Shown piece by piece: positions 7,228 through 62,593 of a stretch of 64,000 bases of DNA. Source of the DNA: Leucoraja erinacea (taxonomy: Eukaryota); assembly GCF_028641065.1 (NCBI RefSeq), contig NC_073400.1:19716001-19780000 (forward strand). The letters are read 5' to 3'. Position 1 is the stretch's first letter. Each line of letters starts with the position of its first letter. The translations under genes and the position numbers were made by a program. The notes beneath the pieces were generated by a model that was not told where the DNA came from, did not search any database, and saw nothing but the letters and a program-made list of their open reading frames with translations.

Positions 7228-7545
7228 CGTATACCTCCAGTCGGACTGTGGACATACTCTGTGCTCCCGTATCCAATGTTTCAGTTACCTCGTAATCTCC
7301 TGTGTCCTGTGTCTGTAGACTTAAAATTTCCAGACTGAAGTCATTGAGATGAAGATTTACTCGTCCCTTGTACTTGGTGTTATAGGTTTTAATTTTCCCT
7401 TTTGTATATTCTAATATTCTGGTGCGGGATGATATCTGTTTCCACACAATCTCAACATTGCTCCTTTTGACTTGAAGCCCAGTAGGTAACAAGGCCTTTT
7501 GTCCCACAGTTCCGATCACAAGGCGAGGGTCCGCCCCAGTCCCAG
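7228..7545 (-). CDS. Gene A exon 2: IgV domain of a CD2/SLAM-family-like receptor (phase 1-1, 318 nt)
   Basis: Acceptor CCCTTGTCTCCTCAG, donor G|GTGAGT. Peptide AGTGADPRLVIGTVGQKALLP...EIVWK...YKGRVNLHLNDFSLEILSLQTQDTGDYEV...VRLEVY has the C-strand Trp and D-x-G-x-Y motif but no cysteines, as is typical of CD2-family V domains. Confidence 0.92.
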
Positions 7546-9635: not shown

Positions 9636-9757
9636 CAGTAGGTGAAGAGAAGTGCTGGACTCGGAATATGGAGTAAAACATATGGGGGGAAAAGAGGGGA
9701 TGAAGGAAGGGAGGGAGTGAGAGAAAAAGAGTGGAAGGGGATAGGTTGTGACCTTAC

Positions 9758-9809
9758 CCAGAGAGATGGCAAGTAGGACGGGGCGGAGCAGGCAGGTGAG
9801 CCGCCCCAT
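9758..9809 (-). CDS. Gene A exon 1 coding part: signal peptide MGRLTCLLRPVLLAISL(A)
   Basis: Kozak context AAGATGG, hydrophobic core, phase-1 donor G|GTAAGG that joins the IgV exon in frame. Confidence 0.85.
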
Positions 9810-23143: not shown

Positions 23144-23229
23144 GATGGGCGTCGTTTCCCAGTAACTGGGCATGTGCAGAGGCACTTTCTGTAAAACGGA
23201 GGCAGCAGGTGTCTTTGAGCTGGGGTCTC

Positions 23230-23524
23230 TCACAGAGGGTGTCTGAACTGGAATCTCTCTCTGGGGCTGTCTGAGCTGGAGTCTCTCATGGGGTGTGTGA
23301 GTTGGTCTATCATGGGGAAACTGTGAGCTGGGGTCAACTCAGGGGATGTCTGTGAGCTGGAGTCAACTCTCAAGGGGTATCTGTGAGCTGGGGTCAACTC
23401 AGGGGATGTCTGTGAGCTGGAGTCAACTCTCATGGGGTTTTTGTGAGTTGGAGTCGTTCTGTCAGGGGGTGTCTGTGACCTGCGAACATCCAATCGGATC
23501 CTTTCTTCACTCGCTTCATCATGC
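23230..23524 (-). CDS. Gene B exon 6 (last): Ser/Thr/Pro-rich repetitive cytoplasmic tail
   Basis: Acceptor CTCTGCTCTGTCCTATAG. Phase-2 entry matches exon 5 and opens the long frame (Q)HDEASEERIRLDV...RHPL*. Confidence 0.7.
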
Positions 23525-23754
23525 CTATAGGACAGAGCAGAGGTGAGATTAGTGAGTGCCCATTGATAGATATTTCCCAGTCTTTCCAATCCAACCCCTC
23601 TTCCCACACAAAGCAGCACCTTCATACCCATTGACCCCGACGCTCCCTGTCCCACTCGGCCCATGCACCGCCAGATTTCACCCTCGCGAGCCTGTCCATT
23701 CAGAACCACAAACATGAAACACAACCCTTCCCCAACCTCACAAATGGCCTTTGT

Positions 23755-24365
23755 GGGGACAGTGTACCCCAGTAACTGAGTGTGTGGGGACAGTGTACCC
23801 CAGTAACTGGATGTGTAGGGGACAGTGTACCCCAGTAACAGGGTGTATGGGGACAGTGTATCTCAGGAACAGGGTGTGCTTGGAATGAATGAAGTTGCAG
23901 AGAATTAAATCTTGCCTGGTCAATCACAAAACTGAGCTCCGAACCATCAAAGGGATCTCCAGGGAGCACTGCGTTAGGAAGGCATCTCATATGATCAAGA
24001 TCCACAGTCTCATTCTCATTGCTACCATCAAGATGAAGGTACAACAGTCTGAGAACTGTGTGATAGCTTCCAGGAACAGCTTCTTCCCATCCACCACCTG
24101 AATCTTGAACCACCCTGCACAACACTAACGCAACATTTTTTATTATACCTTAATTTGTTGTGTTGTGCATTTAATGTGCCTGTAAAGCTGAAGCAAATCC
24201 GAATTTCATTGTTCCAAACCTGGACAATTAAACATTGGAATCTCGAGTGGGGACGGTGTAACTGGGTGCGTGGCAGACAGTGTACCCCAGTAACTGGGGG
24301 TGTGTGGAGACAGTGTACCCCAGTAACTGGGGGTGTGTGGAGCCAGTTTACCCCAGTAAATGGGT
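23755..24365. repeat. 31-32-bp minisatellite (gggacagtgtaccccagtaactgggtgtgtg), split by a LINE-derived insert (~23885-24245)
   Basis: Four units at 23755-23880 and about 3-4 units at 24250-24365. Confidence 0.8.
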
Positions 24366-24703
24366 CTCTCTATTCTGGGATACTCCTGGTGAGGATGTGG
24401 GGATGATTTATCGTGTTACTGTGCCTCAGAGGGCGGTGGAGGCAGGTTATCTGGATGCTTTCAAGAGAGAGCTAGATAGGGCTCTTAAAAATAGTGGAGT
24501 CAGGGGATATGGTGAGAAGGCAAGAACGGGGTACTGATTGGGGATGATCAGCCATGATCACATTAAATGGCAGTGCTGGTGTGAAGAGCCGAATGGCTTA
24601 CCCCTGCACCTATTGCCTATTGTCTACTGCTCTGCCATCTCCCACTCCGGGCTGCCAGTTTGATCTCCAGCAATCCTCTGCTGAGGACCATTCTGCTACT
24701 TAC

Positions 24704-24758
24704 TGTTTGTCGGCATTGTTGTGAGCATTCTTGATGATTGTTCCTGGTTTCAGCAACA
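24704..24758 (-). CDS. Gene B exon 5: 55-nt cytoplasmic exon (L)LLKPGTIIKNAHNNADK(Q), phase 1-2
   Basis: Strong acceptor TATTCTCTCTCCACAG and donor A|GTAAGT. It exactly bridges the phases of exons 4 and 6. Confidence 0.78.
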
Positions 24759-25092
24759 CTGTGGAGAGAGAATACAGGTGACGAGGCGCTGTTCAGTGAA
24801 CTGCTCCCTGGAACCCTCACCCCTCTGAACCTCCTTTCTATTCTACAATCCCCTCACAGCTGCCACACCCCTGACCCCTACCACCTCCTCCTCCAGCCCC
24901 TCCCACATCCTTCTATCCATTCCCTTTTTCTCCCCATTGCCTTCTATACTCACCACTGCCCCCGCTTCTCACACATCGCCTTCATCTCCCCCATCCTCTT
25001 AACCACACCCTCTCTCCCAGCTCCTCCCACCACTTGCTATTCTCTCCCCTGGTGACTGACCCCACACTCCCCTGATCGGAGCAGACACTCAC

Positions 25093-25287
25093 GGGTATAG
25101 AATGAAGCACGCTGGTCTGGTCTTTCTTGGCACCAGTTGGCCCAGTACACAGACAGGTCAGCCAGTGTCAGTTGTTTTGGTCTCAGTATGCAGTAGCAAT
25201 GGATGATGATCATCACAATAAACACAATGATGATCCCAATGATGACAATGACGATCAGCACTATCACCAGCCACCGCAATCCTGTAG
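25093..25287 (-). CDS. Gene B exon 4: transmembrane and juxtamembrane segment (phase 1-1, 195 nt)
   Basis: Acceptor TCTTTTCTCCTCACCAG, donor C|GTGAGT. Peptide ATGLRWLVIVLIVIVIIGIIIVFIVMIIIHCYCILRPKQ...RASFYT. Confidence 0.88.
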
Positions 25288-26224
25288 CTGGTGAGGAGAA
25301 AAGACTCAGTGACTCCAACACCATCGTCTCTCCCAGTGACACGGGGTGAACAGATCCACTCCCACCCCATCCCACCCCAGTATCATGCCCCCACTGACAC
25401 TCCCATCTCTCCCCATTAAACAGGAAACCAGTGCCTGCCATCCTGTTTCTTCTCCCTGTAGAGCCAGGCCTGTTGGGCACGTCCCAGTGGCCAGAACCAC
25501 ATCAGCAACAGGTTGCACGGCCACAGTAGCTCAACCATCTCCCATCTTCCCCACGCCCTCACCCCACCTTATACTCCAACCCATCCCCTCCCTCCCAATT
25601 CACTGCCACCTATACTGACATTTATATGTCTCTCTGGTCTGGTGAAGTGTTCCTCATGTGAAACGTGAACTGTTTCTCTTTCCACGAATGCTTCGTGCTT
25701 TTGGGAAACTGCAGTGTTTTTTTATTTTCACTCCCCTCCTTTTCCTCCTCCACCCTCCATCTTCCTCAATTGCCTCAAATCTCCCCATACATCACTTCCC
25801 TCCAATCCCTCAATCCTCTTTCACCCTCCATCCAGAGCAATTCCCCTCTATCCTCTCCAATACCCCACTATCCTCTCCATTCACCCCTCACTCTACCCCC
25901 TCCACATATTACCCCAGTTTCTGAGAGAGAACAGTTGTTTTCATTTTTAAAGGAAATTCCATGATTACAAGCATCACACTAGGACAGTATACAATACAAT
26001 TGTACACATACAGGTACACAGGATTGTATTCAAACAGTATACAATCAACAAACCTCAAGTTACAACAACCTAATCTCGACACACTTGAGCCAGTGCAGTG
26101 TCCACTGCTCCCAGGCAGCCTCCAAAGGGCTAGTAGATGCTACACATTCCCTCTCAATGTCACCCAGATATGGACATAACTTCCGAAGAGGAACTGGTAG
26201 TCAAGGTGGAACTTTGTGTACCTG

Positions 26225-26510
26225 AGCCAGCTGCCTGCCCCTTTTCCGGGGTTACGTCCGTGCCCGGGTGGGATTAGAAAGGGAATACGCCCTGTCTACG
26301 GGCACCCTGAGGGAGTTCCGGGACCGCTGGGCTCCGCAGGGTGTTGAATGTATCCTCAATAAGGATTGTATCATAGTTGTATAGTAGTTTATTATGGATA
26401 CATGTTTGTATTGTATTATGGTGGTGGGTTCTGGCTTGTTTTATTGTAGTGTAAATATTATTTTTAATAATTGAATAAATTTTGTTGTAATAAAAAATAA
26501 AAAATAATAA
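26225..26510 (+). mobile_element. Tx1-like LINE 3' end
   Basis: CLPLFRGYVRARVGLEREYALSTGTLREFRDRWAPQG followed by a short UTR and A-rich tail. Confidence 0.7.
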
Positions 26511-27480
26511 TATGCAAACAGAGGCTGCAAACTCTCACATGCCATGTACATGTGAAACTGATTTTTTTCAGGCCTTGGAAGCAACAGAAACTATGAATCG
26601 CCTCACTCTACATCCTGCCTCAGGCAGACTTCAATCACACTATGGAAGAATTGGGCGCCACAATCATAAGCGCAACCGAGCGTATACAATGCCTTTCATT
26701 ATAAATGTGACGTGTTGCATTTCGGAAACATAATTGTCATACATTTTCCAGAGTCTAACCAGGATAGGATCCACACAGGGCTCTGGGGAGAGTTGTAGAG
26801 CAGTGACATCTAGAAGTGCAGGTACATACGTAGTTCTGTGAAAGTGGCATCACAGGGACAGGATGGTCAAGAAGGCTTTCGGCACACTGGCTTCATTAGT
26901 CAAGTATCAAATATAGAAGTTAGAAGGTATAGAATAGAAGTGCATTTGCTGGTTTAAATCAAAGACAGAAACAAAATGCAGGAGTAACTCAGCGAGACAG
27001 GCATTACGCTCTCTGGAGAGAAGAAATAAGTGATGTTTCGGCTTGAGATCCTTCAGCATAATTTCAGGGGAGTGGGTGGTACAGAGATAATATGTAGACA
27101 GAGACAGTAAGACTGGTAGGAGAACTGGGACGGGGGAGGAGGTGGAGAGAGAGGGAAAGCAAGGGCTACTTGAAGTTAGTGAAGTCAATGTTCATACCGC
27201 TGGGGTGTAAGCTGCCCGAGCGAAATATGCTGTTCCTCCAATTTGCATTGGGCGTCACTCTGACAATGGAGGAGGCGCAGGACAGAAAATTCAGTGTTGA
27301 AATGGGAGGGGTAGTTAAAGTATTGAGAAACTGGGAGATCAGGTAGGTTTAGGCGGACTAAGCAGAGGTGTTCAGCGAAATGATCGCCGAGCCTGCGCTT
27401 GGTCTCGCCGATACCAGGAGTCCACACCTGGAGCAGCGGATGCAGTAGATGATGTTGGAGGCGTTGCAAGTGAACCTCTG
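26511..27480. repeat. Inverted paralogue of 3365-4339; includes a Penelope GIY-YIG fragment (~27170-27480, minus)
   Basis: IGETKRRLGDHFAEHL peptide; reverse-complement match to 3365-4339. Confidence 0.9.
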
Positions 27481-28769
27481 CCTCACTGTAGAGTCCCTGT
27501 TTTCTCTACACTACCTGCCCCTCCACTATCTTTGTATCATCTGAAAGCCTTGCCACAAAGCCATCAACTCCCTCACCCAACCCACTTTCCATACTGGTAT
27601 ATTTGACTTTGAGTATAGTTTATTGTCACATGTGCTGAGGTACAGTGAAAAGCTTTTGTTGCAAGCTAACAAGTCAATAGAAAGACAATACGATTATAAT
27701 CAAAACATTCACCGTGTACAGATACATGATAAGCGAATACCGAATTATGTTTAGTACAAGGTAAAGCCAGTGAAGTGCAATCGCTGACCATTGATCCCCA
27801 CACACTTACACTATCATACACATATGTGACCACCGGGTGGCGCTGCTGCGGCTGCCTCGCAAACAGTCTGTCTCTCCCTTTTCCTTCTTTGTTGTCTTTA
27901 GTATGTATTAAATATGTTTTTTGGGTCCTTTAGCTTTGTTTTATGTGGGGGGGGGGGGGGGGTTGGGGGGAAACAGGAGCTTTTTTCTTCAAAAGGTCTC
28001 TTACCTCGACGGAGATGCGATTTTTTTTCGTATCGTACCTCTGCCCGTACTGAGGCGTAATATTGTGGAGCTGGCGGCCTCTAGCTGGGGATCGACTTTG
28101 GGATCTCCAACTGTGAGAGCCTGCAGGACTTAACATCGTGGAACTGGCAGACCCTGTCAAAGGAACCAACCAGTGTCCTCAAGATCACCATAGCCACCTC
28201 TTTGCTAGTTTCATTACATCTTGGTCCTCAGGGATGGGAGATAAACAGTGATCTTTCCACAGGAAATACAAACTCGAGGGGGGGGTGTCTACATAATTCA
28301 CTTCTGTTCCTCTTCGAGTGGGGTGGCTATTTTATTGGCTCCACCTTTCCAGCTGGAGACCTTGGAAGTCCAATGTCTTCTGCCAGGCAGTTTGCTTCAG
28401 ATCATCGTGTGCTTGTGCATGCTTTTGCACTTTGTGAACATTTTTTGCCCCCAGGACCTGCATAATACATGCTCTGATTTTGAGAGGAATTATATCTCTT
28501 GAGCTCCATTAACTGTGGTATTGTCTGAAGTGGTGGCTTTCAGTTCTATCCTCGAGGACGGGGAACCATTCGAGTCTCCACTGTGGCCAAGCATCGGTGA
28601 AGAAGTTGAATGTACTAATTGGCTGCTTTGACTTGATAATCACTTGGAGAAAATCTTCATTCCGACTCCAGCTTCCTCACCAGGAGGTCTGGACAAGGGG
28701 CTCTCAGAGCAGTAACCCCTGTAATGTTCACTGGCATATGTCCTCTGCATTTTGATGGTCGCCATAGAA

Positions 28770-29830
28770 CATAGAACAATACAACTCAAGAACATGCCCT
28801 TTGGCCCACAATGTCTGGCACTTAATCCATATATCTACATTCCCTGCATATCCAGATGCCTCTCCAAAAGTCTCTTATAGTATATATTTCTATCAGGTCT
28901 CTTCACAATCTCCTGTGTTCCAGAGAAAACAATCCAAGTGTCCAAACTCTCCTTGTAGTTAACACCCCTTAATATGGGCATTATTCTGTAAACCTCCTAT
29001 GCAAATTTTCCAAAGCCATCACATCCTTTCTGTAATGCGGCATCCAAAACTGGATGCAAAACACCAAATGTGGCTTAAACAGAAGCCTATAAAGCAGCAT
29101 AGTGACATGTTGACTCTCATACTCAATGCCCAGAATTATGAAACCAGGCACACAGTATGCATTCTTAACCACTACATTTACTTGTGTTGCCAGTTTCAGG
29201 AAGTTATGGACATGGACTCAAGATCTCTCTGTTGTTGAGGATCATGCCATTAATTGTATACTTACCGTTACATTTGACCTTCCAAAGTGCAACACCTCAC
29301 ATTTGCTTGGATTAAACTCCTTCTGCCATTTCTCCACCCATTTCTCTTGTTGACCTCTATCTCGCTGTATACATTGCCTGCCTTTTTCACAGTCCATGAC
29401 CCCAGTAATCCTGGTGTCATCTTCAAACTTACAAGCCAACCTGTCTACGTTTACACCCAAGTTATTTATATGTATAACAAACAACAGACGTTCGAGCACA
29501 GATCCCTGTGGAACTCCACTGGTCACAAACCTTCAGCCTGAATATTGTCCTTCCACCACAAGCCATTGTCTTCTATCTGTAAACCAGTTCTAAATCCATA
29601 GAAACAAGTCACTGTTAATCCTGTGCATCTTAATCCTCTGGATCATCCTAGCATCAGCCTATCAAATTCCTTCCTAAAATCCATGTACAAAGCTATTCTG
29701 ACTGTCCCTAATTAATCTATTCTCTACCAAATGGGAGTAAATTCTATCCTGAAGTAATATCTCCAATATCTTCCATACATCTGATGGGAGGCTCACCCGC
29801 TTATAATTCCCTGGATTCTCTCTATTTCCA
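28770..29830 (-). mobile_element. Old CR1 LINE
   Basis: [21 protein letters not shown] and KPHLVFCIQFW peptides, degenerate. Confidence 0.85.
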
Positions 29831-30200
29831 TTGAATGCCGCAAGAGCACCAATCTTGCTCTCAATTACAGCAAGGCCAAGGAGCTGAAACTTGACCTGCA
29901 AAGTTTCCTATACATGTTCTCCAGAGATGCTGCGTGACCCATTGAGATCCTTCAGCACGTTGTGCTACTTTTTGGAAACCAGCATCTGCAGTTCTTTGTT
30001 TCTATAAGAGATGGTTGTTGACTTTAGCAGGGAAAAGCCAAGGATCAACAAACCTGTTTTAATCAATGGGATGGCAATGGAAAGTGTCACAGCTTGATGT
30101 TCCTGGCCCCAACAAATCAATGAAATCATAAAAATAAACTCTCTGGGTACGAAGGAATCTCTGCTCCTTTCTAAAAACCAATTCCCCCTTTGACACTCAC

Positions 30201-30485
30201 CAGATGTGGGCTGTTTACAGACGTCTGTCAGGTAGATATGTGCCATGCCTGTACTGCCCGGGTTGGTGGCCTCACACCTGTACTCAACGTTCCTGTCCTC
30301 TGCTGTAGGATGAACCTCTATCGTCTCTCCTTGTCCCCGGAGGTGATGGATGCTGTCGTTTCCCAGAGCTTCTCCTCCCTTCCACCACATGAAGCTGGTG
30401 GGGTTGCCAGAGGTCACGGAGCAGTTCAGGTTGAAGTTGCAGATGCCCTTGTGCTGAACCGAGATCCGTGTTCCTGACACATGTT
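30201..30485 (-). CDS. Gene B exon 3: IgC2 domain (phase 1-1, 285 nt)
   Basis: Acceptor TTTCTTTGTCCCAACCCCAG, donor G|GTGAGT. Peptide EHVSGTRISV...ICNFNLNCSV...MWWKGG...YRCEATNPGS...DVCKQPTS has the four cysteines typical of CD2/SLAM C2 domains. The join gives LEVYEHVS. Confidence 0.92.
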
Positions 30486-33400
30486 CTGGGGTTGGGACAA
30501 AGAAATTAAAGATGAGTAAAAGACCCAGTTGTGGACATCTCAACAACCAACAACCTGCCCCCAACAGATGTAAGAGAACTTTAAGCCGATCCCAATTATT
30601 TCTACCCACCGGTTTAACTCTCCCCATCTCCTTCAGTTCAGACAGTTGTCGCTGGAGGAAGTCTACACGTGTGCTGCGCCCCCTTCCCAACCACTGTCCG
30701 CACTCATCCACAAACTCTCCACTGTGTCCTGTTTATGCCTCTGCATCATTGGAATTCTCTCTGGTTCCATATTATTTTATCAAGTGGTAAAATAGAAATA
30801 AAAGCAGGAGAAGGGTATTCGGCCCCTTGTTTTTCCTGCCACATAAGATCACGGCCCTTTCTTTTCCTTCAGCACCAGTTTCCTGCACTTTCCGTCCATT
30901 TCCATCACACACGCAATCCCAAGGATCTGTCTTGAATGTGCTCAGTAACTGAACCCCCACGAGGTTCAGTCCCTCTGGATGAAATATTCTCCATCTCTGT
31001 CCTGAATGGTCACGTGGGTTTTCTCCGGGTGCTCCGGTTTCCCCCCACACCCCAAAGAAGTTGATACAAAAAGCTGGAATTACGCAGCGGGTCAGACAGC
31101 ATCTCTGGAGAAATGGAACAGGTGACGTTTCGGGTCAAGCCCCTTCTGATTAACATGGGTCTGAAGAATATTATCAACTCGAACCGTCACCTTTCCTTTT
31201 CTCCAGATATGCTGCTCCACCCACTGCTTTTTGTGTCTATCTTCAGCTTAAACCAGCATCTGCTGTTCCTTCTTACACAGGTTTGTAGGTTAATTGGCTT
31301 CGGTAAAATTGTAAATTGTCCCTAATGGCTAGGATAATGCTTGAGTGTACGAGGTGAATGCTGGTTGGTGTGGACTCGATGGGCCGAAAAGCCTGGTTTA
31401 ACGCTGTATCTCTAAAGTCTAGAAAACCCTGACTCTCAGATGGTGGCTCCTGGTCCCAGAAACCGCAGCAGGGGAAATCCCCCTCACCACACCCACCCTG
31501 CTGAGTCCTGGAAGGAAGTTTCAGTGAGATCACCTCATCTTTCTCTCAATTCCAAAGTCTGCTTCATCCTCCCATGAGGCAAACCCACTAGTCACGGGAA
31601 TTGATCTGGTGGTTCCTTGCTGCACTTCCTCAGACACCATTAGATCCTTTCCCAGGGTGGAGGGGGTACAGGACCTGTCCACAAAATTCCACATGTGGTG
31701 TCACCAGCACTCTGCTAATGAATTGCTGGCTGTATCTGTGGGATAACTTTCACTGATTCCTGTGCAAGGAAACACTGATTCTTCCGAACAACAACATCTT
31801 AAGTCTCTCCGCATTAAATAATGATTCTGCTTTTCTATTATCCCTACACTGTGGATGACCACACATTTCCATGTTATAATCCTGCCGTGTCCCTGCCCAT
31901 GTATTTATCCTGATCCTATCTTCCAAAGATTTTCTACATCCACTCCACAGCCCCCACAGCACAGAGTTTTAGAGCTTGGGTAGGTTACACTCGATTCCCC
32001 CGTCCATTACAGGGATACAGATCCCTGCACCACCTCATTAGTCGCAATCTCCCAACATGAAAATAGCCCCCACACTCCTGCATTGTTTTTGTCTGTTAAC
32101 CAAACCAAACTCCACTCCAAGCTGGGAAGGATGCAGTGAAGATGTACGAGGATGTTCCCAAGACTTGAGGACCTGAACTACAGGGAGAAGTTGAGCAGGC
32201 TGACTCTATTCCTTGGAACGCAGTAGAATGAGGGGCGATCTTACAGAGGTGTACAAAATCATGAGAGGAATAGATCGGGTAAATGCAGAATCTCTTGCCC
32301 CGAGTAGGGGAATCAAGAACCTGAGGACATAGGTTTAAGGTGAGAGGTAAAAGATTTAATAGGAACCTGAGGGGTATCTTTTTCACACAAAGGGTGTTGG
32401 GAGTATGGATTGAGCTGCCAGAGGAGGTAGAAGGGGCTGGTACTATCGCTATAAGAAACATTTAAACCGGTACATGGATAGGATATGTTTAGACAGATAT
32501 GGAAGGTTTAGAGGGTCTGTGATGGGCACAGACCCAGACTGGGATAGCGTGCCGTGTTCCAGAGTGAATCCGGCACCGTGCAGATCCCGGGTCACACACC
32601 CTCTCCCCCACAGAGACTCAATCAGCTCACAGATCAGGGGGTGTAATCATCAAATTATTCCGATCTGCTGTGGGGCACATTTTTGGAATCAGAATGGAGA
32701 ATAAATCACAAAGGATAGAGCAGAGATCTACAGAGACAGAATAACAAGGTCATGGAAAGCAAAGTAGTCCAGTCCATCTAAGTAAGATCAAAATTGATCA
32801 GCCATGATCATATTGAATGGTGGTGCAGGCTCGAAGGGCCGAATGGCCTACTCCTGCACCTATTTTCTATGTTTCTAAAACAACAAAAAAATACTGCAGA
32901 TGCTGGAACCAGAAGCAAATACAAAACTGCTGGGGATCTCAGGCATCATCCTCCGTGGGTTTGACAGTAGCGCAGTGGTAGAGTTGCTGCATTCCTACAG
33001 CAAGGACCTGGGATTAATTCTGACTATGGGTGCTGTCTGTATGGAGTTTGTGTGTTCTCCCTGTGATCACATGGGATTTCTCTGGGTGCTCCGGTTTCCT
33101 CCCCCATTCCACAGACATGCAGGTTTGTAGGTTAATTGGCTTCCATAAATTGTCCTTAGTGTGTGATCGTTGGTTGGCGTGGACTAGATGGGCCGAAGCG
33201 CCTGTTTCCATGCTGTATCGATAAACCAAACTAAATTAAACTAATCTGTGGAGTGCCATGAATTAATTATTTTTTTAGTAGAGATTGAGACTCAGGACTG
33301 AGATTGTAGAGGAGAGATGGCCAGGGCATAGACGCGAGAGTGAGGGGTGAGTTAGGAGTTGGCAGACCACACAGAGAGCATGGCACACAGTTCTGGTTCC

Positions 33401-34357
33401 CGTATCCTTGGGTTGCACTGGCGAGACATGCAACTGGATCTGGAGCACAGGTCTTCCATACTATAGCTGTGATGTTGTCAGGAAACACTGCTCTCCCCAG
33501 GGCTCTCAACCATTTCCTGGGATCACATGGACTGAACTGAATAGTCCGGGGACAGTTCTGTGTTGGAGGGATCACAGACGGAAGCAGAGGGAGATCATCC
33601 ACTCACACCTCCGGCTGTGGAGGGGCATGTTTGTGGGTGATCAGCCTTGTCTCCAGCACTCACATGCAGGGTTCCCGCATCGCTGAGAATGGTGATGTTC
33701 TTAAAGACTCCTCACCACATGAGCTGTTGAATTGTCCACCACTAGTCATGACCAGATACGAGATGACTGTAGAGCTGTGACCTGAGCCATGGGCAGTGCG
33801 GTCCCTTAGCTCTATTTCATGCGGCTGTTTTTGCTGATGAGCTCGCACGTCGCCCTGTGTCACAGCTTCATCAGGCTGGCACCTCGTCGTGCTTAGCTAC
33901 ACCTGGTGCTGCTTCCAGCATGTCATCTGCGCTCCTCAGTGAACCAGGGATAACCCCCACTGGGTGACAGTAATGGTGGTGTGAGGGATGTGCTGGACTA
34001 TGAGATTACAGGCTGTGTGCAGGACATTTCTGCTGATGATGGTCCACAGCACCCCATGAATCCCAGTGTTCAGTTGTTGGGCCTGTTTTGACGGTGCTCA
34101 GCTCCTCCAGCCTCGGAGCCATGAGGTTCCCCGTTGACAGCTCGATCCTTCGCGGCCCCTTACCCAGTCTCCAGGGATGTCCCCCAGCTTGGCACTGCCC
34201 CAGTCCCATTACATTGGGACCGTCACCCCCCACTCTGGACACTGGCAGTCAGTGGGATTCAGTAAACAATGTACAGTATCAGCCTTCATCATTTATGTGG
34301 GATGAGGGGTTTCATTAAATGGTTAAACCCACACCCCTTGGTGGCGGTCTCACTCAC

Positions 34358-34675
34358 CGTATACCTCCAGTTGGACTGTGGACACATTCTTTGCTCCCGT
34401 ATCCAGTATTACAGTTACCTCGTAATCTCCCGTGTCCTGTGTCTGTAGGCTTAAAATTTCCAGACTGAAGTCATTGGGATGAAGATTTACTCGTCCCTTG
34501 TAATTGTTGTTATAGGTTTTAATTTTCCCGTTCTTATATTCCAGTACCCTGGTTCTGGATGACATGTGTTTCCACACAATCTCAAGATTGCTCACTTTGA
34601 CTCGAAGCCCAGAAGGTAACAAGGCCTTTTGTCCCACAGTTCCGATCACAGGGCCAGGGTCAGCCCCAGTCCCAG
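34358..34675 (-). CDS. Gene B exon 2: cysteine-less IgV domain (phase 1-1, 318 nt)
   Basis: Same splice sites as the gene A IgV exon. SGTGADPGPVIGTVGQKALLP...EIVWK...DTGDYEV...VQLEVY; about 81% amino-acid identity to gene A by hand alignment. Confidence 0.92.
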
Positions 34676-36309
34676 CTGAGGAGACAAGAGAGGAGGTCAG
34701 CAGAAGAACACAATAACTGGATGTGGAACTTTACATGATCAAACTCAGGTCTCTGGCGCTGTAAGGCACCAACTCCACCACTGCGCTACTATGTTGCCTT
34801 CAGACTTGACTAATGAATAGCAGATTATCAATTAACTCTTCCATTTTACACAATATTGGGTCTAAAATTGCCCTCTTCATCATTGGTTCCTGAACATGTT
34901 GAACTATAAAACTATCCTTGCGTTTGTTCCTCTATGGTGTCATCAAACTAACAGCATTGAAATAGGCCATTCGGCTCAACAAGTCTAGGCTGAACAAGTT
35001 GCCAAAGTGAGCTAGTCCACCTTGCCTGCATTTTGACTACATCACTCAAAATCTTTCTTATCCATACACCTGTCCAAGTGTCTTTTAAATGTCGTAATTA
35101 TATCTGCCTCTATATCTATTGGCAGCTTGTTCCATATACACACCACCCACAATGTGAAAAAGCTGTCTACAAAGTCCTTTTTAATTCTTTCTTCTCTCAC
35201 TTTAAATATATTACCTTTAGATTTATATTCCCCTACTCTGGGAAAAGACTATGTTTATTCACTTTATCTGTGCCTATCACAATTTTATAAGCATCTATAA
35301 GCTGACCCCTCAATCTCTTATGCTCCAGCGTAAAAAGTGTAGCCTATCCAGCCTCTCCTTTTTTGACTGGATAGGAAAGATTTAGTGGGATGTGGGCCAA
35401 ATGCAGGAAGGTAGGACTGGCGTGCATGGGGCACGGTCGGCATGGGCATGTTGGGCCAATGGGTCTGATTCCGAATTGTATGACTCTATGATGCTATAAC
35501 TCAAACCAGGTAACATGTATCGTAAGTTTTTATTTGCATCTTTTCCTGTTTAATTTATCATCCAACAGCATTGAGATCAGAACTATTGCACTACTTTACT
35601 AGTGGCATTATCAATATCCTGTACAGCTGTAATATGCCCTGCACTTAATATCCTGACTGATGAAAGCAAATGTGCCAAATACCTCCTTTTTCCACCCTGT
35701 CCAGCTGTTTTGATACTATGTGCCTCCACCCCTAGGTCTCTCTGTCCTACAATACCTATCTACTATTTACTATGTAAGTCCTGCTCTGGTTTGTCCTACC
35801 AAAGTAAAATACTTCACATTTATCTGAATTAAACTCGATCTGTCATTCCTCAACCCTCTGGCCTAGTTGATCAGGATCCCATTGTAATCATGGATAATCT
35901 TCTTCACGTCCACTATACACCAATTTTAGTTTCATATACAAACCTACCAATAATGCCAGCTGGTTCTCATCCAAATTGTTAATATAAATGTTGAACAACC
36001 CAGTACCCATTCCTGCAGCACACCTAGAGTCATAGACCTCCGGTCTTAAAACAAATGCATATCACTACCCAGTCACTTCTACCATCAAGCCAATTATATT
36101 TCAATTATGACACCATGTGATATAACTTTCTGGACAGCTTACCAAGTGGCACCTTGTCAAAGGCCTTGTTAAAGTCCACATTGGCAAGACCCATCATGCT
36201 ATCTTCATCTTTCTAGTCACCTTGTCAAAAACTCACTCAAATTCCTGAGACACAAATTCTCAAGCACAAAGCCATAGTAACCATCCCTATTCAGTCTTTG
36301 TCTTTCCAA

Positions 36310-37230
36310 AAGGACAAAGGACATTTATTGTCACATACACCAATTGGTGCAGTGAAATTTGAGTTACTGTACCAATTGGTATATGTTATACAATTATTAT
36401 ACAATTATTCATTGTCATTTGAACCTCAAATGAAGTTCAAACGAAATTTGGTTTCTGCGGTCATACAACAAGAAAAGAACCAAGAACCGCAACCAACACA
36501 ATTTACACAAACATCCATCACAGTGAATCTCCTCCTCACTGTGATGGAAGGCAAAGTCTTGTCTCTCCCGAGTTCCATTCTTCTCCCGATGTTAAAGTCC
36601 CCGGCGGGCGATGGGAAGTCCCACGGCCGTTAAGGCTGCGCCGGGCGATGTAAGGTCCGCTCCGGGTCTTAATGTTGGAACCCAGGCGGGCGATGGTAAG
36701 TCCCGCGGCCGTTAAAGCCACGCCGGGCGATGTAAGGCCCAGCTCTGGGTCACTTTCAACCCCGCAACTTGGGCGGGAGAAGTTGCTGTTGCGGGTGCTC
36801 CAAAAAGCAGTCTCCCACCTGGGACCCGCGAGCTCCCGATGTCACCGTCCACCGATCCTGCGGCTGAAGCCTCTGAGATCCGGAGTCGGGTCGCAGCCGC
36901 GCATCACCACAACTCTCCACACTCCGAAGCCGGCCAGCCCCACGATGGTAAATTCGCAGGCTCCGTGACTGGAGCCTCCAGGTCGTTCCGGTTGGTGGCC
37001 GCTCCACGGTGCTGGGCCCCAACGACAACGGAAAAGGTCGGGTCTCCTGTACAGGGAAGAGATGAAAAGTTTCCTCTACCCCCCCCCCCCCGCCTCCCAC
37101 ATATGCACAGCTAAAAACAATATAAAAACTAGTACAAACTATACATTCAACGGGACAAAAATTAAAAAAAAGACAGACGGACTGCAGAGGCCGCTGCAAC
37201 GTTGGTCGCGCCGCCCAATGTGACAAAAGC
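36310..37230 (-). mobile_element. GC-rich non-autonomous retroposon-like repeat; related heads at ~27830-28160 and ~59495-59700 (plus)
   Basis: Shared head (gcggc..c.c.gcagtc.gtctgtc followed by a T-run, a G-run and ggaaactttt). Internal short tandem repeats at 36600-36740. Confidence 0.55.
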
Positions 37231-38554
37231 ACGCAACGTCCCTTCAATAACTTATTGATGTCACTCATTGGTCTGTACTTCCCAGCCTTGTCCTGCAGTC
37301 CGTCTTAAATAAAGACACAATTTGCCCACCCTCCAGTCTGCCAACACCTCACCATTGCTATCGCTGATACTAATATCTCTGCTAGGCGCATCATAAATTC
37401 TTCCCTACCTTGCTACAATGTCCTACGATACACTTAATTAGGTCCTGAGGATTTATCTTTATATGTTTTAAGACGTCCAGTAGTGGTGTAATGCTCCTCT
37501 GATATAATGTGCTCTCTTCAAGTCATCACTATTGACTTCCCCGTGCTCGCTAACATGCATGAAAGGCATAGGGATGGGAAATCATTAAGGACCTTGTCCA
37601 TCTCCTGTGGCTCCACACAGAGGACCTTCACATCACTCTCAGTCTATGTGTGGATTTGGGTCTTCCTGGTCACTGCATTGCCCTTGTTACATGCACCTCC
37701 GATTCTTAAAATAATCTAAACCCTGTATTCCCACAGTGTCTGGGTGCTTGCACCCATTGCCTCCTACCATTCATTTTTGCCACTGTTACAGTCTCTAAAA
37801 TATATAGGAAGGCTGAATTCATCCTGAAATCAGGTGAGTAGTGTCACTCGTCCTGAACAAGGCTCTCAATGTATCAGACCACATGGGGGCCATGGCAAAG
37901 AAGGTTGTAATGTGCAATGTTACGGAGAAAGAGTTGGAGCTGCCTCCACTTGTAAGGAATTTGTCAATTTTATCACCTTTGCTATTCACCTCCAGACTGT
38001 CCTCAAATTTGATTAGACTATTTCAGACACTTCTCTCCCCTTCCTATCTGTCTCATCTCCGGAAGCAAATTATCCCTTTATATTTACAATCAATCCACTG
38101 AATCCCATGTGGACTAACCTCTTCCACCTGTCTCCTGTGAGAACACCATCTCTTTCTTTCAGTTTCTCCATCTCCACTACATCTGTTGTCAAGATGAGGC
38201 TTTCCATGCAAGTAATCTTACATGTTCTCCATTCTCAAGAAACACGACTCCCCGTTCTGCAACCTGCATCTCCTCCATTTTATAGACTTCTGGTTTCAAC
38301 GTGCCTCTCCCAGAGAAAAACAAGAAATACCTCCCCGGTCCTTAAATTTCACCTTCCCATGCAAGCATTGTCATATTTTACAGGTATCTGTGTCATTGCC
38401 TCAAGACTGCAGCGTAATCTTCGAGTTTCACTCAGTATCTAAACCTGTGTCCTAGATCTGTGTAAGTTTAGAGGGAGTTTTATTCTGTTTTTAATCTCTG
38501 CCCCATTGGTGATGGGACATTATACAGGGAGTTTTACTCTGCATCTGAGGAGTT

Positions 38555-39076
38555 GTGTTAAATCCTGCTATGGAAAGATTGAGACAGCCAATGTCACTAA
38601 TTCTATTAAATGTCTTACCTTAAGATTTGAGCTTGCATGTGCAAAAAGCCTACTAACACAAATAGCAGAACCACTACCCTTGTACAACTTGCAGACATGC
38701 AGAATGACTAACTGATTTTAGCAAAGAATGGAAAACAAACAACTTCATAATTGGAGGTGATCAACTTTAAGCAACTTTGCTGATAACCAACTTTAAACAA
38801 AGGGTGAAAAACAACCCCATATTTGAAGAAGAACCAATGACATCATGCTAATGGATGACTGATGTAAAGGAATATGTGAAAGAAATGTAATTGGATAAGA
38901 AGGGGGAAGGAAAGCTTTGTTTAAAAAGGTGTATAAGGTAATGCCTGAAGAAGAGGAGTAGCTACTCTTTGCCAGGTTACCTGGTCTATGGTCGGGTGAA
39001 CTGATGTAAAGACTCTGCTCAATAAAAACGTACGTTTTTGGGAACCCAGTGGTCTGGTCGATTATTGTCGCAACAA
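38555..39076 (+). mobile_element. Possible solo LTR in gene B intron 1
   Basis: TG...CAACA bracket, TATA-like gtataag (~38931) and AATAAA (~39021). No TSD found. Confidence 0.35.
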
Positions 39077-39184
39077 CCGATGGAAAAAGGCTTGAATCCT
39101 CACATCCAACCTATGCCCTGGGACTGTGGCAGTGCAGAGCAAGAACAAGCATTGAAATTCACCAAGAAATGATAAGCCTGAAAC

Positions 39185-39290
39185 TCTTGTTCAGCCTAAG
39201 CCCTTGTGAGAGATCAGAAACCTGCTGTTAAGCTGCGATAAGGGAGGGCGTTTACTCAAACGATCAAATGGTGGCAGGAAGTGGTTTGCA
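39185..39290. promoter_or_regulatory. Conserved intron-1 element, second and more diverged gene B copy
   Basis: gggagggcgtttactcaaacgatcaaatggtggcaggaagtggtt matches the reverse complement of 63098-63146. Confidence 0.5.
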
Positions 39291-40357
39291 ACATATTCTG
39301 GAGGCGGTTGGGAAATATATGAAGCAGGAAATGTTGTTGAACGAGAGAGAGACTAACTGAGGGAGAGAGAGAGAAAGAGAGAGAGAGGGAGAGAGATAGA
39401 AAGAAGGAAGAAAAGAAAGAGACAGACAGACTAATCTGCAGAGTGTGTGACCCATGGAAGTGATGGAAGACAAGCAGACAGAGTGAGAGAGACTAAGTGC
39501 CAAATAGTGGAAAAACATTTGTATAGTGAGAAAGTGAGAGAACTCAAAAAGGAGAAAAAGAGTGACAAGAAAAGATCTGAGCTGCACCCTCGGAGTGAGT
39601 GATTGGATGTGGTAAACAGAGCTTTCCTGTTACTTCTGTAAATGAGGAAATTCAGCACGTCTCCAATGACTCTTACAAACTTTTACAGATGCACCATAGA
39701 AACCATATTTTCGGCTTAAATGACAACTTGATTTGTGAACAGCTCTGCACAAGACCACAAAAGATTAGCAGTGGATGTCGCCCAGTCCACCACACAGACT
39801 GGCCTATCCACATTGACTCCTCATGCACTTCAAACTGCCTTTGAAAATCAGCTAACAAGACTTGACCCACGCCGGTTCTTCCTTCTTCATCTCTACAACA
39901 CTGAGAAATACATTCCACTCTCTGTATCTTTCCCTTTCCTCTATATATTGTACTTGAGTTTGTCTTGATTATATTTATGTATAGTATTATCTGATCGGAT
40001 TGGATAGCATCCAAAACTATTGTTTTCACTTTACCTCGGTACACATGACAATAATAAACCTAAACTGCCATATTTCACCCGTGCCATGAGACTGTCTAAG
40101 GGAGATTGTGTAAATAGAACTTCACATTGTTTAAAAACTGTATCTTTGGAAATTTTAACCGGACAGACGAGACCCATGTTTACTTGATATCTATCGAATG
40201 TCCCAGTAATTTGCCATGTGTCAGTGTAAAGGGGAAACTGCCTGTGTAGTTGATCCGTGCTCTGAAATATGTGATGGAAATGTGCAAAGGGAGCTTCATT
40301 CTATGTCTAATCATGCCCTGGGAATATGGACTGCGTAGAGTGAGGATAGTTGCTGGA

Positions 40358-40489
40358 ATCCATCAAAGAACAAATGGGTCTGAAGGCTCAGAGCCCATTA
40401 GTGATTGGGAACTGCTGTCAAGTTGTAATAAGTTGATTCACAAAGAGAGAGTGTTTGGTCAAACAATGCATCAAATCGTGGCAGGAAGC
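40358..40489. promoter_or_regulatory. Conserved intron-1 element, first gene B copy
   Basis: atccatca...tctgaaggctcagagccc...ctgctgtca...gtgtttggtcaaacaatgcatcaaatcgtggcaggaag is collinear with the gene A and gene C copies. Confidence 0.55.
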
Positions 40490-41103
40490 ATACAACACTT
40501 CTGGTGAAGATGCAAGGCGGAAAATGGCGCGGCCCTAATATTTTGAGAGAGAACGATGAAGAGAGAGAAAGATGAAGAGATAGAAAGAGCAACTGATCTG
40601 CAGAGAGAGCGACGTTGAAATAAGTGTTGGAAGAAAAGCAAAGCAAATAAATTGAAACACCAAAACTGAGTTAAGGACAAAGACAAATAAATAAGGGCGA
40701 ACTTAAGAGGAAGAGAGGAAGCTTTCTGGAGTTAGAGGGCAGAAGACTGCATGCCCTATTTCAGGCTGAGCGTAAAGAGAGTCGCCACACATATACATTG
40801 AAAACCTCAAAGGTTCACATGCATGTCTCTGCTCCATAACTAGAGTAAAGTAATTAAAATCTAAGATAAACAAAATGGTGGGCAGAGAGCAGTTAGGGGA
40901 AGTACCTCAAGGTGAACTATATTTTGAATCTTTATTTGGATGTTTGGTGCTTTGGTGATTGTTCTAGCTAATATTTCAAACATTATAAAGAGAGCTTTAC
41001 TTAGTAACGAAACACTGTCCAGAGAGTGCAAGATGGGATTCTGCTGGAGAGAGAGAAATTAAGCACAAAGTTAAACAGACAGGTTCTTTTTGATTAAACT
41101 TAC

Positions 41104-41158
41104 AGTCTGAGATGGCCAGCATGAGCCAGAAGGAGATTGGCAGGCACCTGAAGTCCAT
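41104..41158 (-). CDS. Gene B exon 1 coding part: signal peptide MDFRCLPISFWLMLAISD(S)
   Basis: Kozak context GATATGG, phase-1 donor T|GTAAGT. Resembles the gene A leader (CL...LLAIS). Upstream GC box (~41253) and GAGGAAGT PU.1/ETS site (~41280). Confidence 0.82.
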
Positions 41159-47028: not shown

Positions 47029-50000
47029 AAAAACCCAATCCCACGCAGAGTTGGGTGGGAGGAGGGGGACCGGTGGGCTAATATTCGTCCGAGACATCCA
47101 TGTCCGCATCCTCCTCCATGGCATCAGAGGAAAGCTCCGTCTCGTCATAACTCAGACGGAAGAGGGGACAGAGTCTCAGGGGCGGCGACCCCTATAGCAG
47201 TGGCGGACTAGGACGGCTGGTCGGGATGACGTTGGTGAAACTCCCTGATGATGGAGGCGTCCAGGATGTGTCGAGCAGGATCCAGGACCTCTCCTCTGGA
47301 CCGTAACCCTCCCAATCGACCAGGTATTGGAGACCCCTCCCGCGACGGCGGGAGCACAGGAGGCGGTGCACCGTAAAGGCAAATGAGACGAGGAGGTGGA
47401 GGAGGATGGACTGCGGGGACCAGGGAGCTCTCCCGGACTGGCTTTACTCTGGACACGTGGAACGTAGGTTGGACCCGCATGGAACGAGGCAACTTGAGCC
47501 TCACAGCCGCTGGGTTGATGACCTTCTGGATCTCAAAGGGACCGATGAACTTGGGTGCCAACTTCTTGGACTCCACCCTCGAGGGAAGGTCCTGGGTCAA
47601 CAGCCACACCTTCTGGTCCATGAGGTAGGTGGGGGCCTGGGTGCGGTGATGGTTGGCAGCTGTGGCGTAACGATCCATGGAGCGGAGAAGAGCCGCTCTG
47701 GCTTGGCTCCACGTCCTGCTACAGCGACGAATGAAGGCCTGGACGGACGGGCAGGAAACCTCTTTCTCCAGCGCCGGGAACAATGGAGGCTGGAACCCGT
47801 AGGCACACTGGAGAGGGGAGAGCCCAGTGGCCGAGCTTGTCAGGGTGTTGTGGGCGTACTCCACCCACAACAACTGCTGGGACCAGGAGGAGGGATGCTT
47901 GGACACCATACACCGCAGCGCCGTCTCCATCTCCTGATTCTTCCGTTCAGTCTGGCCGTTGGACAGGGGATGAAATCCGGACGTCAGACTCACGGTGGCC
48001 CCCACAAGCGTGCAGAACTCCCTCCAGAACACAGAGGCAAACTGGGGTCCCCGGTCGGAGACCACATCGACGGGGAGACCATGGAGCCTGAAGACGTGGA
48101 GTAACATGAGCTCGGCAGTTTCCTTGGCTGACGGAAGCTTGGGCAGGGGCACGAAGTGAGCCATCTTGCTAAATCTATCGACCACGGTCAGGATGGTGGT
48201 GTGACCACTGGATGGGGGCAGGCCGGTAACGAAGTCCAGGGAGATGTGGGACCATGGTCGATGGGGTACAGGCAGTGGAAGCAGATGACCCACAGGAGCT
48301 TGGTGTGAGACCTTGTGCTGGTTGCAAACGGGACAGGCGTTGACAAACTCCCGAGTGTCCTCCTCCAGCGATGCCCACCAGAACCTCCGTAGCACCATCT
48401 CCTTGGTCCGCTGAATGCCGGGATGACAGGCGAGTCGAGAACTGTGGGCCCACTGAAGGACGTCGGACCGCAGGGCAGAAACCACAAACAGGCGATCAGG
48501 AGGGCATGCGCTGGGTCCCGGCTGGTTCTCCAAGGCCGCCTTGACCTTCTCCTCCACCTCCCAGGTGAGGGAGGCAACCCTGTGCGAGGACGGGAGGATG
48601 GTCTGGGGGCCAAGAACTGTCGAGAGAGGGCATCGAGCTTCACGTTGTGGGACCCAGGTCGGCAGGAGAAGGAGAAGTTGAAGCGGGTGAGGAAGAGAGA
48701 CGAGCGGCCTGACGAGAGTTGAGCCTCTTGGCTGACTGGAGGTATTCAAGGTTCTTGTGGTCAGTCCAAACCAAGAAAGGCTGCTCGGTTCCCTCCAGCC
48801 AGTGACGCCATTCCTCCAACGCCAACTTAACCGCCAACAGGTTGCCAATGTCATAATTCCTCTCAGCAGGGGTCAGGCGTCGGGAGAAGAAGGCGCATGG
48901 ATGTAGCTTCTGGTCCCCGGCAGCCCACTGGGACAGAACAGCTCCCACCCCCCACGTCGGAGGCGTCCACCTCCACCACGAACTGTCTGTCTGAGTCCGG
49001 AACTTGGAGGATGGGGGCCGATGTAAACCGTGTCTTGAGTGTCCGAAAAGCTTCGTCGGCCGCGGCAGACCACCGAAACGGAAACTTGGAGGAGGTGAGT
49101 GCCGTGAGGGGTGTGGCCACAGTACTGTAGCCACGGATGAACCGTCGGTAAAAATTGGCGAACCCCAGGAACCTTTGGAGCTGTTTGCGGGAGTCAGGAA
49201 CAGGCCAGGTGGTGACAGCAGAGTCCTTGGCGGGGTCCATCTTGATGTTCCCTTGGCCAACGATGTATCCTAGGAAGGAGACTGACGGGGAGTGAAACTC
49301 GCACTTCTCAGCTTTAAGGAAAAGCGAGTTCTCCAGGAGCCGATGTAGAACTGCCTGGACGTGGTGTACGTGTTCATCCTTGGTCTGTGAAAAGATGAGG
49401 ATGTCATCAATATAGACGAACACGTACTTGTTCAACATGTCTCTGAGAACATCATTGATCAAAGCCTGGAAGACGGCCGGGGCGTTGGTGAGGCCAAAGG
49501 GCATCACCAGGTATTCATAATGTCCCATGGGAGTGTTGAAGGCGGTCTTCCACTCATCTCCCTCTTTGATGCGGACCAAGTGGTAGGCGTTGCGTAGATC
49601 CAACTTCAAAAAGATGGTGGCCCCCTCCAGGAGCTCGAAAGCAGAGGAGATGGGTGGGAGAGGGTAGCGATTCTTCACCGTGATGCCGTTGAGCCCCCGG
49701 TAATCTATGCAGGAACGCAGAGATTTGTCCTTCTTCTCCACGAAGAAGAACCCAGCCCCAGCAGGAGACGAGGAGGGACGGATGAGACCAGCAACCAAGG
49801 AGTCGCTTATGTATTTATCCATGGCGCCTCTCTCAGGGGCGGACTGGGAATAAAGGCGCCCCTAGGAGGAGCGGAACCAGGCAGGAGGTCTATGGCGCAG
49901 TCATAGGGCCGATGAGAAGTGAGGGAGGTGGCCCTAGACTTGCTAAAAACCTCCCCAAAGTCATGGTACACAGCTGGGACCCCCGTCAGATCTGGAGCAG

Positions 50001-51479: not shown

Positions 51480-51978
51480 TGTAACGGGTATAGCTTGGAC
51501 CCAATAGCAGCACAGAATCAGGCAGGTATAGTTGGTAATGAACTTTATTACAACACTGTAACACAGAGTAGTAACACAGGAATGGGTACACTGTACTCAC
51601 ACAGAGGCTCAGAATTGAGCGAGGGTTCCGAAGAGGGGCAGGCAGGAGATGTAGTCGGGGTAGCGGAAGGTCCGGTAACCAGGAGATCCAACACACGATG
51701 CAAACAAACCTGCGAGGGACAGACGAGAGGAGAGTCGAAGCCAGGCAGGAAGTCGAGGAGCCGTTGCAGGGATACACCAAACAGCCCAGGAGAGAGGCAG
51801 ACAGAAACCAGGATGTACGGGACGAAGGCCGGGGTCGGTGACAGAAGGCTGAGGTGATATCCGGGAAGACGACAGGACGGAATGGTCAGGGGCAGGCAGG
51901 TTCGAATCCGTGTAGGCAATCGGGAAATCGCTGGAGAGTCTTGCATGAATGCTGAGAACAATCTGGCACCGGGATCAA
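51480..51978 (-). repeat. 5' LTR (R-U5 part; U3 missing)
   Basis: Ends ...GTTACA directly before the PBS GTACAATCTGGCC and the gag ATG. The outer end abuts the LINE ORF1 ATG. Confidence 0.85.
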
Positions 51979-62526: not shown

Positions 62527-62593
62527 ATGTGGCACTTTTCTTTGAGGAGGATCCCCTTCCTACTCTGTGCATCCCTCATCGCCGTCTTTGTAG
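62527..62593 (+). CDS. Probable gene C exon 1 coding part: signal peptide MWHFSLRRIPFLLCASLIAVFV(x); likely a third family member running off the window
   Basis: AAGATG start context as in gene A, hydrophobic core, phase-1 donor G|GTAAGT. Followed by a pyrimidine tract and the family intron-1 element, as in genes A and B. Family assignment is indirect. Confidence 0.7.

What the first reader, a model, noticed from the sequence alone, without database searches (positions are those of the whole stretch)
23230..41158. Complete six-exon, 400-aa CD2/SLAM-like receptor gene with a non-canonical tail
Seen: exons 41104-41158, 34358-34675, 30201-30485, 25093-25287, 24704-24758 and 23230-23524 all have GT-AG borders and compatible phases (1,1,1,1,2). 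They sum to 1203 nt, i.e. 400 aa plus stop. Established: leader + Cys-less IgV + 4-Cys IgC2 + TM is the CD2/SLAM family architecture. Unusual: the ~150-aa tail has no ITSM (TxYxxI/V) as in SLAMF receptors and no CD2-type polyproline motif, and the TM has no charged residue. Inference: this is a lineage-specific signalling type of CD2-family receptor in a cartilaginous fish.
Basis: partly seen in the sequence, partly recalled or inferred. Interest (0 to 1): 0.75.

Follow-up and report, generated by a model that had tools for sequence, protein, structure and literature searches.

The report
Skate SLAM receptor with repeat-built tail
This skate gene is predicted to make a CD2/SLAM-family immune receptor whose tail lacks the family's usual signalling motifs and ends in a stretch encoded by a DNA repeat; it likely works mainly as a cell-contact partner that tunes its signalling neighbours, a role already known from mammalian CD48, CD58 and SLAMF8/9.

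Summary
The six exons, splice sites, phases and 400-aa frame are as described. The ectodomain is CD2/SLAM-type by profile, fold and synteny, and lies in a skate cluster with 9 V exons. NCBI's model of this gene (297 aa) runs into intron 3. No read spanning a junction of this copy was seen. The tail is a class found only in skates so far: a Trp-faced juxtamembrane helix, an RASF site and a disordered Ser/Thr/Pro repeat encoded by a 29-31-nt minisatellite. Versus Rhinoraja, two inferred frameshifts cancel, so the repeat is read in the same frame. Three paralogs truncate this tail. 'Signalling type' is unproven: 11 of 12 tail-side substitutions change the amino acid. Neighbours carry normal ITSMs or Arg anchors; the scan has already noted this paired cluster, and an ITSM-less member, in other skate DNA. 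Verdict: real gene, new tail variant of a known family, moderate interest.

The parts
41104..41158 (-). Exon 1, leader peptide (55 nt, phase 1)
   Evidence: matches the N-terminus of P0001 and 83% to P0002
34358..34675 (-). Exon 2, Cys-less IgV domain
   Evidence: Pfam V-set 9.5e-8 and Receptor_2B4 6.8e-6; best PDB sequence hits CD48; exact-match contigs in runs X1 and X2
30201..30485 (-). Exon 3, IgC2 domain with four Cys; NCBI model P0001 reads through its donor into intron 3
25093..25287 (-). Exon 4 (195 nt): uncharged TM, juxtamembrane Cys, Trp-faced helix, RASF site; 9 nt longer than in three paralogs and in organism B
25124..25168 (-). Predicted juxtamembrane helix (aa 260-274) with hydrophobic residues at i, i+3, i+7, i+10
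   Evidence: helix 251-263 in the AlphaFold model of relative P0002; moment only 0.28 in this copy, 0.29-0.57 in relatives
24704..24758 (-). Exon 5, 55 nt here against 60 nt in paralog E and, by codon count, in Amblyraja and Rhinoraja; with the end of exon 4 it forms the non-conserved ITIM-like motif
23230..23524 (-). Exon 6, 97 codons plus stop, 38% Ser+Thr+Pro, predicted disordered
   Evidence: contigs of run X1 at 23186-23410
23216..23482 (-). Coding minisatellite, units of 24-31 nt; 29+31-nt pairs give a 20-aa repeat (2.4 copies; five 21-aa copies in P0002)
   Evidence: only one other copy in the genome search, in paralog D
7228..7545 (-). V exon of paralog E (90% DNA identity); candidate leader exon starts at 9809; its C2, TM and tail lie left of the window
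62527..62593 (+). Leader exon of head-to-head neighbour G, whose tail exons (C24:19794353-19796161) carry ITSMs

Best explanation
This gene has an intact six-exon frame for a CD2/SLAM-family protein that is predicted to sit in the leukocyte membrane and likely works mainly as an adhesion ligand and modulator, binding SLAM-type partners on other cells through its V domain without recruiting SAP or SHP phosphatases. Shown: gene structure, family, cluster context, tail anatomy, non-conservation of the tyrosines. Inferred: (1) the V domain binds itself or sibling receptors in trans, as mammalian SLAMFs and CD2/CD58 do; (2) the conserved part of the tail, a Cys- and Trp-bearing helix plus the RASF site, lies on the inner leaflet and sets membrane location, perhaps under Ser phosphorylation; (3) the minisatellite-encoded repeat is translated, was likely present in the ancestor of this tail class, and is a variable-length disordered extension of secondary importance; (4) unequal crossing-over swaps ectodomains and tails among cluster genes, so this tail is a third option beside ITSM tails and Arg-anchor short tails.
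For: Family: profile hits led by CD48/CD2 3e-18 and SLAMF6 1.3e-16; Foldseek top five are CD48/CD2, CD58, CD2 twice, SLAMF6; nicastrin 470 kb away on C24. Splicing pattern: the paralog C cluster has Logan-derived and NCBI proteins joining TM exon, exon 5 and exon 6 at the homologous sites; Rhinoraja P0002 has the same tail class with the repeat. Tyr not conserved: 0 of 3 skate paralogs, Rhinoraja and organism B have Y283, and organism B also lacks Y267. Long tail kept open: entry frame open for 97 codons in 48 of 5000 dinucleotide shuffles (0.0096) and in 0.6-1.0% of 20000 unit permutations; the longest frame from the exon 6 start in paralogs C, D, E is 38 codons. Mosaicism: paralog E is 90% identical to this gene in V and C2 but 70% in the TM exon, where it is 87-88% identical to C and D.
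Against: No junction read of this copy in 7 RNA or RNA-guess runs of unknown tissue; TM exon and exon 5 had no reads attributable to it. NCBI's own model ends in intron 3. No binding partner was tested. The shuffle nulls overstate significance, because minisatellites grow by copying unit pairs and the gene was picked for its long frame. The helix moment in this copy is low (0.28). VANGL, a mammalian SLAMF neighbour (recalled), was found only on C13.
Confidence: 0.55

Rival explanations
1. The repeat tail is an active, tyrosine-independent signalling module: a multisite Ser/Thr-Pro phosphorylation and docking array whose copy number tunes output, with the truncated paralogs as its signalling-dead partners.
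For: Frame of the repeat kept in two skate families despite inferred indels of 5, 6 and 31 nt that sum to 42; 7-8 S/T-P sites in both tails; chicken chB6 is a precedent for a SLAM-like ectodomain with an unrelated, functional tail (PMC11882424).
Against: Similarity between species follows from the shared DNA unit; about 18 residues before the repeat are read in different frames in the two species; 11 of 12 substitutions against organism B are non-synonymous, 4 of 4 in exon 6; the one motif lead (LC8) failed against published non-binders.
Confidence: 0.17
2. The gene works, but its main product is shorter (exon 5 skipped, giving 30 codons from exon 6, or the intron-3 read-through form without this TM); the long frame is a neutral by-product of a 3' minisatellite.
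For: NCBI model ends in intron 3; paralog C has NCBI isoforms skipping exon 4 or exons 4-5; RNA contigs cover the V exon and exon 6 but not exons 3-5; three paralogs do without the long tail.
Against: Organism B keeps the 55-nt exon 5 and an open exon 6 over the part covered (23339-23524); all splice sites are canonical; Rhinoraja model has the long form.
Confidence: 0.17
3. It is a young, poorly expressed duplicate on the way to becoming a pseudogene.
For: Very low RNA depth; mostly non-synonymous change on the tail side.
Against: No stop or uncompensated frameshift in 400 codons; invariant family residues kept; a counterpart exists in Rhinoraja, another skate family.
Confidence: 0.07
4. It is an inhibitory receptor using the ITIM-like SxYxxL at the exon 4/5 junction.
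For: Matches the ITIM consensus 35 residues from the membrane.
Against: One base from the Cys codon of all three paralogs and of organism B; Ala in Rhinoraja. At most a recent gain in this species or allele.
Confidence: 0.04

Closest known systems
Mammalian SLAMF8 and SLAMF9
   Same: IgV + IgC2 + TM with no ITSM (PMC4718992, passages); SLAMF8 acts as a negative modulator without known tail motifs (same paper).
   Different: Their tails are about 30 aa; this tail is 152 aa with a Trp helix and a minisatellite-encoded repeat. No orthology: this gene nests in a skate clade.
CD48 (SLAMF2) and CD58
   Same: Closest V domain by sequence and closest folds; act as ligands without their own tyrosine motifs.
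   Different: CD48 is GPI-anchored; CD58 has a very short tail (recalled). This gene has a full TM exon and long tail.
Chicken chB6 (Bu-1)
   Same: SLAM-like ectodomain with a lineage-specific tail unlike other SLAMs (PMC11882424, abstract, introduction and methods read).
   Different: chB6 signals through an SH3-binding motif; this tail has no PxxP. Function of chB6 is tested; here it is not.
Expanded CD2/SLAM families of Xenopus and cyprinid fish (Guselnikov 2011; Sameshima 2012)
   Same: Lineage-specific tandem expansion with varied tails (recalled; both papers not held, seen only as citations).
   Different: Whether they contain a tail like this one could not be checked.
Other chondrichthyan SLAM-like NCBI models (ITSM class and Arg/Lys-TM class)
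   Same: Ectodomains 34-62% identical over the alignment, same cluster.
   Different: Of 54 search hits classified, at least 16 have ITSM tails, 9 an Arg/Lys TM with short tail, and only 2 this tail class.

Membership tests
CD2/SLAM family | Membrane-distal IgV domain without the canonical disulfide | tested here: met
   No Cys in exon 2; Pfam V-set and Receptor_2B4 over cut-off; CD48 best PDB hits
CD2/SLAM family | Membrane-proximal IgC2 with two Cys pairs | tested here: met
   C146, C195, C214 invariant and C140 nearly invariant in 35 relatives; disulfides themselves not tested
CD2/SLAM family | V+C2 fold closest to CD2/SLAM structures | tested here: met
   Foldseek ranks 1-5 are CD48/CD2, CD58, CD2, CD2, SLAMF6, TMt 0.70-0.79; profile search, where CEACAM1 follows closely (9.5e-16)
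CD2/SLAM family | Type I TM; one exon per domain with phase-1 introns | tested here: met
   TM helix in model of P0002
CD2/SLAM family | Tandem cluster in conserved synteny (nicastrin, VANGL2 in mammals; recalled) | tested here: inconclusive
   9 clear V exons in 464 kb and nicastrin 470 kb away; VANGL found only on C13
CD2/SLAM family | Leukocyte expression and binding to self or family members | not testable with these tools
   Run tissues not given; no binding assay
Classical ITSM-bearing SLAMF (SLAMF1, 3-7) | TxYxxI/V in the tail | tested here: not met
   0 matches; neighbour G has them
CD2 proper | Polyproline SH3/GYF-binding tail | tested here: not met
   0 PxxP
Adaptor-coupled activating receptors | Charged TM residue and short tail | tested here: not met
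   such a TM exists in a neighbour at C24:19836151
ITIM inhibitory receptors | Conserved S/I/V/LxYxxI/V/L | tested here: not met
   Consensus present in this copy only; Tyr absent in 3 of 3 paralogs, Rhinoraja, Amblyraja paralogs and organism B
One-to-one ortholog of a mammalian SLAMF | Single-copy sister relationship | tested here: not met
   V domain groups with skate paralogs at 100/99; the tree held no mammalian rows, so which mammalian gene the whole clade is nearest to was not tested

The most novel reading that the evidence does not exclude
Skates built a third signalling class inside a paired SLAM cluster: a tyrosine-free tail made from a coding minisatellite, held in frame by selection through cancelling frameshifts, whose repeat number tunes Ser/Thr phosphorylation or docking, with truncated paralogs as decoys.
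Probability: 0.17. Interest if true: 0.68.

Novelty: new variant of a known kind. Interest (0 to 1): 0.38.

Why it matters
It corrects the public gene model (a 297-aa form without this TM becomes a likely 400-aa membrane receptor) and shows that the skate SLAM cluster mixes three tail classes by recombination. If the repeat proves functional, it would be a rare case of an immune-receptor tail built from a minisatellite and tuned by copy number. If not, it is one more ITSM-less SLAM member, a kind known from mammals.

Tried and rejected
ITIM reading: rejected as a conserved mechanism. LC8/DYNLL binding by the SSQT-containing repeat (resemblance recalled): both SSQT-anchored peptides in the table passage of PMC6607443 that I saw (ANKIB1, QSER1) were non-binders, so the idea was dropped and no complex was predicted; weak multivalent binding is not excluded. 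A WxxL LIR-like core (label recalled) occurs in 4 of 6 relatives of this TM exon but not in this copy; not pursued. Pfam found nothing for exon 6 and only generic TM hits for exon 4. No RNA holder was listed as RNA on record. Two lays gave no junction of this gene; only 15 of 444 and 15 of 28 joints were shown, repeats dominated them, and the exon 1/2 junction was never covered. X10 reads at 25237-25317 carry a paralog-type base and were not counted for this gene. A tail-only protein search found only the paralog C cluster among 6 candidates and missed P0002, so it is a weak test of range. The protein atlas gave no answer for the tail. DNA comparison of this tail with ITSM-gene tails found only a shared intronic 31-33-nt minisatellite in the last intron and faint intron matches, no exon homology, so descent from an ITSM tail is suggested by position but not shown. 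Literature searches listed no paper on chondrichthyan CD2/SLAM tails; subscription papers and supplements were not seen and may bear on novelty. In one search the exon 5 acceptor of paralog C was mis-picked (89 nt); the alignment and P0040/P0185 give the right one. In one search three proteins were mislabelled as Tyr-motif class and are left out of the 16.
Full report
Observation. The V domain has no Cys, the C2 domain has four, the TM is uncharged, and the 152-aa tail has no ITSM and no PxxP.

Identity. The V exon is 100% identical to NCBI XP_055510665.1, 'CD48 antigen-like', Leucoraja erinacea, on a contig of the same length as C24. It is itself a predicted model.

Family. The V exon passes Pfam V-set and Receptor_2B4 and hits CD48 first in the PDB. 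A profile of 35 relatives ranks CD48/CD2, SLAMF6 and CD48 first, with CEACAM1 close behind. The AlphaFold model of P0001 (mean pLDDT 80.8) matches CD48/CD2, CD58, CD2 twice and SLAMF6 as its top five folds. Nicastrin lies 470 kb away; its place beside the mammalian SLAMF locus is recalled. VANGL was found only on C13. In a V-domain tree of 42 rows without mammalian sequences, this gene groups with the Rhinoraja protein, skate paralog E and an Amblyraja protein (100/99), sister to paralog C and its Amblyraja counterpart (95/84). One-to-one orthology to a mammalian SLAMF is therefore excluded, and P0002 is a close relative, not a proven one-to-one ortholog.

Cluster. The genome search gave 7 V exons on C24 among 13 matches; a 464-kb region holds 9 clear ones. 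The head-to-head neighbour G, whose leader is at window 62527, has ITSM-bearing tail exons; a TM exon with Arg and a short tail lies at C24:19836151. Among 54 search hits classified, at least 16 have ITSM tails, 9 an Arg/Lys TM and 2 this tail class; 27 were other, partial or unparsed. Of 175 proteins then held, 2 carried the class motif. All named carriers are skates (Leucoraja, Amblyraja, Rhinoraja). Earlier notes of this scan describe the same paired organisation in other skate DNA; I had reached it independently before that call.

The tail class. Four copies of this TM exon exist, all in the cluster. What they share is a helix with hydrophobic residues, mostly Trp, at i, i+3, i+7, i+10, usually a following Cys, and RASF; AlphaFold gives a helix there and disorder beyond residue 279 in P0002. 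Paralogs C and E stop in exon 5 at one codon and D at another, and all three have TGA near the start of exon 6 where this gene has CGA and Rhinoraja Arg. An Amblyraja paralog reads through a 60-nt exon 5 and ends at that TGA (P0181). Different stops and the CpG-decay direction suggest that the long tail is ancestral and the paralogs are truncations (inference). Paralog E is a mosaic: V and C2 90% identical to this gene, TM exon 70% to it but 87-88% to C and D, and a candidate leader like D's.

Cancelling frameshifts. Exon 5 is 55 nt here against 60 nt in E and, by codon count, in Amblyraja and Rhinoraja. Exon 6 here lacks 6 nt at its start and, inferred from the Rhinoraja protein, one 31-nt unit. 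The sum is 42 nt, so about 18 residues are read in another frame, yet the repeat and its end are read in the same frame in both species. The entry frame stays open for 97 codons in 0.96% of 5000 shuffles and in 0.6-1.0% of 20000 unit permutations; in C, D and E no frame runs beyond 38 codons from the exon start. These nulls overstate the case: arrays grow by copying unit pairs, two indels cancel one time in three, and the gene was picked for its long frame. I count this as moderate support for a translated tail.

Against a conserved signalling motif. Run X3 (organism B, covering introns evenly, about 2% divergent) has Cys at 283 and His at 267, a TM 9 nt shorter, and no indel in exon 5 or in exon 6 down to 23339. 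Of 12 listed substitutions in exons 4-6, 11 are non-synonymous; the list is nearly complete for the two main contigs, and this ratio fits neutral or diversifying change. Rhinoraja has Ala at the 283 position and a single Tyr in its tail, next to the membrane. The LC8 idea failed against published non-binders (PMC6607443, passages).

Expression. Runs X1 and X2 (RNA by guess) have exact-match contigs in the V exon, and X1 has two contigs in exon 6 and the 3' flank, at depth 2.5-3.7, with most unique intron bins empty. Exons 3-5 had no such contig. Raw reads in X9 and X13 gave depth under 2 on the V-exon bin; X16, X10 and X11 gave essentially none on exons 5-6. No junction was seen. Tissues are unknown and only 5-25% of each raw run was read, so expression of the full form is open.

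Mechanism. Most likely (0.55) an adhesion ligand and modulator: the V domain binds family members in trans, the tail recruits neither SAP nor SHP, the Trp/Cys helix and RASF site set membrane location, and the repeat is a translated, variable extension. All functional steps are inferred from the family (PMC4718992, passages). Rivals: the repeat as a Ser/Thr signalling module (0.17), a shorter main product (0.17), a decaying duplicate (0.07), a recent ITIM (0.04).

Literature. Nurse shark T cells express genes called Cd2 and Slamf6 (PMC10529500, passages); a slamf gene maps in the white shark MHC (PMC10751288, passages); chB6 is a precedent for a SLAM-like protein with its own tail (PMC11882424, first quarter of the text). 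Seven searches listed nothing on chondrichthyan SLAM tails; the Xenopus and cyprinid papers were not held.

Verdict. A real CD2/SLAM gene with a tail class so far seen only in skates: a new variant of a known kind, interest 0.38.

Noticed in passing
G000:C24:19.57-19.92 Mb: Paired-receptor layout: ITSM-tailed and Arg/Lys-TM short-tailed genes with sister V domains within Heptranchias, Cetorhinus and Mobula. Already noted by this scan in other skate DNA.
   Followed up: partly
window 7228-9809 and G000:C24:19697400-19714286: Paralog E looks like a three-way mosaic: leader as in D, ectodomain as in the focal gene, TM and tail as in C.
   Followed up: partly
G000:C24:19621286-19627563: Gene B has a V exon and TM/tail exons with Tyr motifs but no C2 exon between them, and a stop where relatives read on: a V-only form or a pseudogene.
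   Followed up: partly
window 23752-23878 and 24258-24364: A 31-33-nt intronic minisatellite sits in the last intron of this gene, of C, D, E and of the Tyr-motif genes G and B, marking those introns as related.
   Followed up: partly
window 47200-51900 (-): Ty3/gypsy-type LTR retrotransposon with gag, RT and integrase in separate broken frames; observed only.
   Followed up: no
window 51949-56932 (+): LINE-type element with a 414-aa ORF1-like frame, endonuclease-RT and RNase H, pol split over frames.
   Followed up: no
G000:C24:19572592-19572897 and 19825938-19826243: Two near-identical divergent V exons on opposite strands 253 kb apart, suggesting an inverted duplication; the second lies upstream of a partial C2 exon.
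   Followed up: no
window 61993-62193: A run of 201 N upstream of gene G's leader; says nothing about the sequence beneath.
   Followed up: no
G000 C1, C4, C5, C6, C7: Six weaker, partial V-like matches outside the cluster, two with stops; not examined.
   Followed up: no
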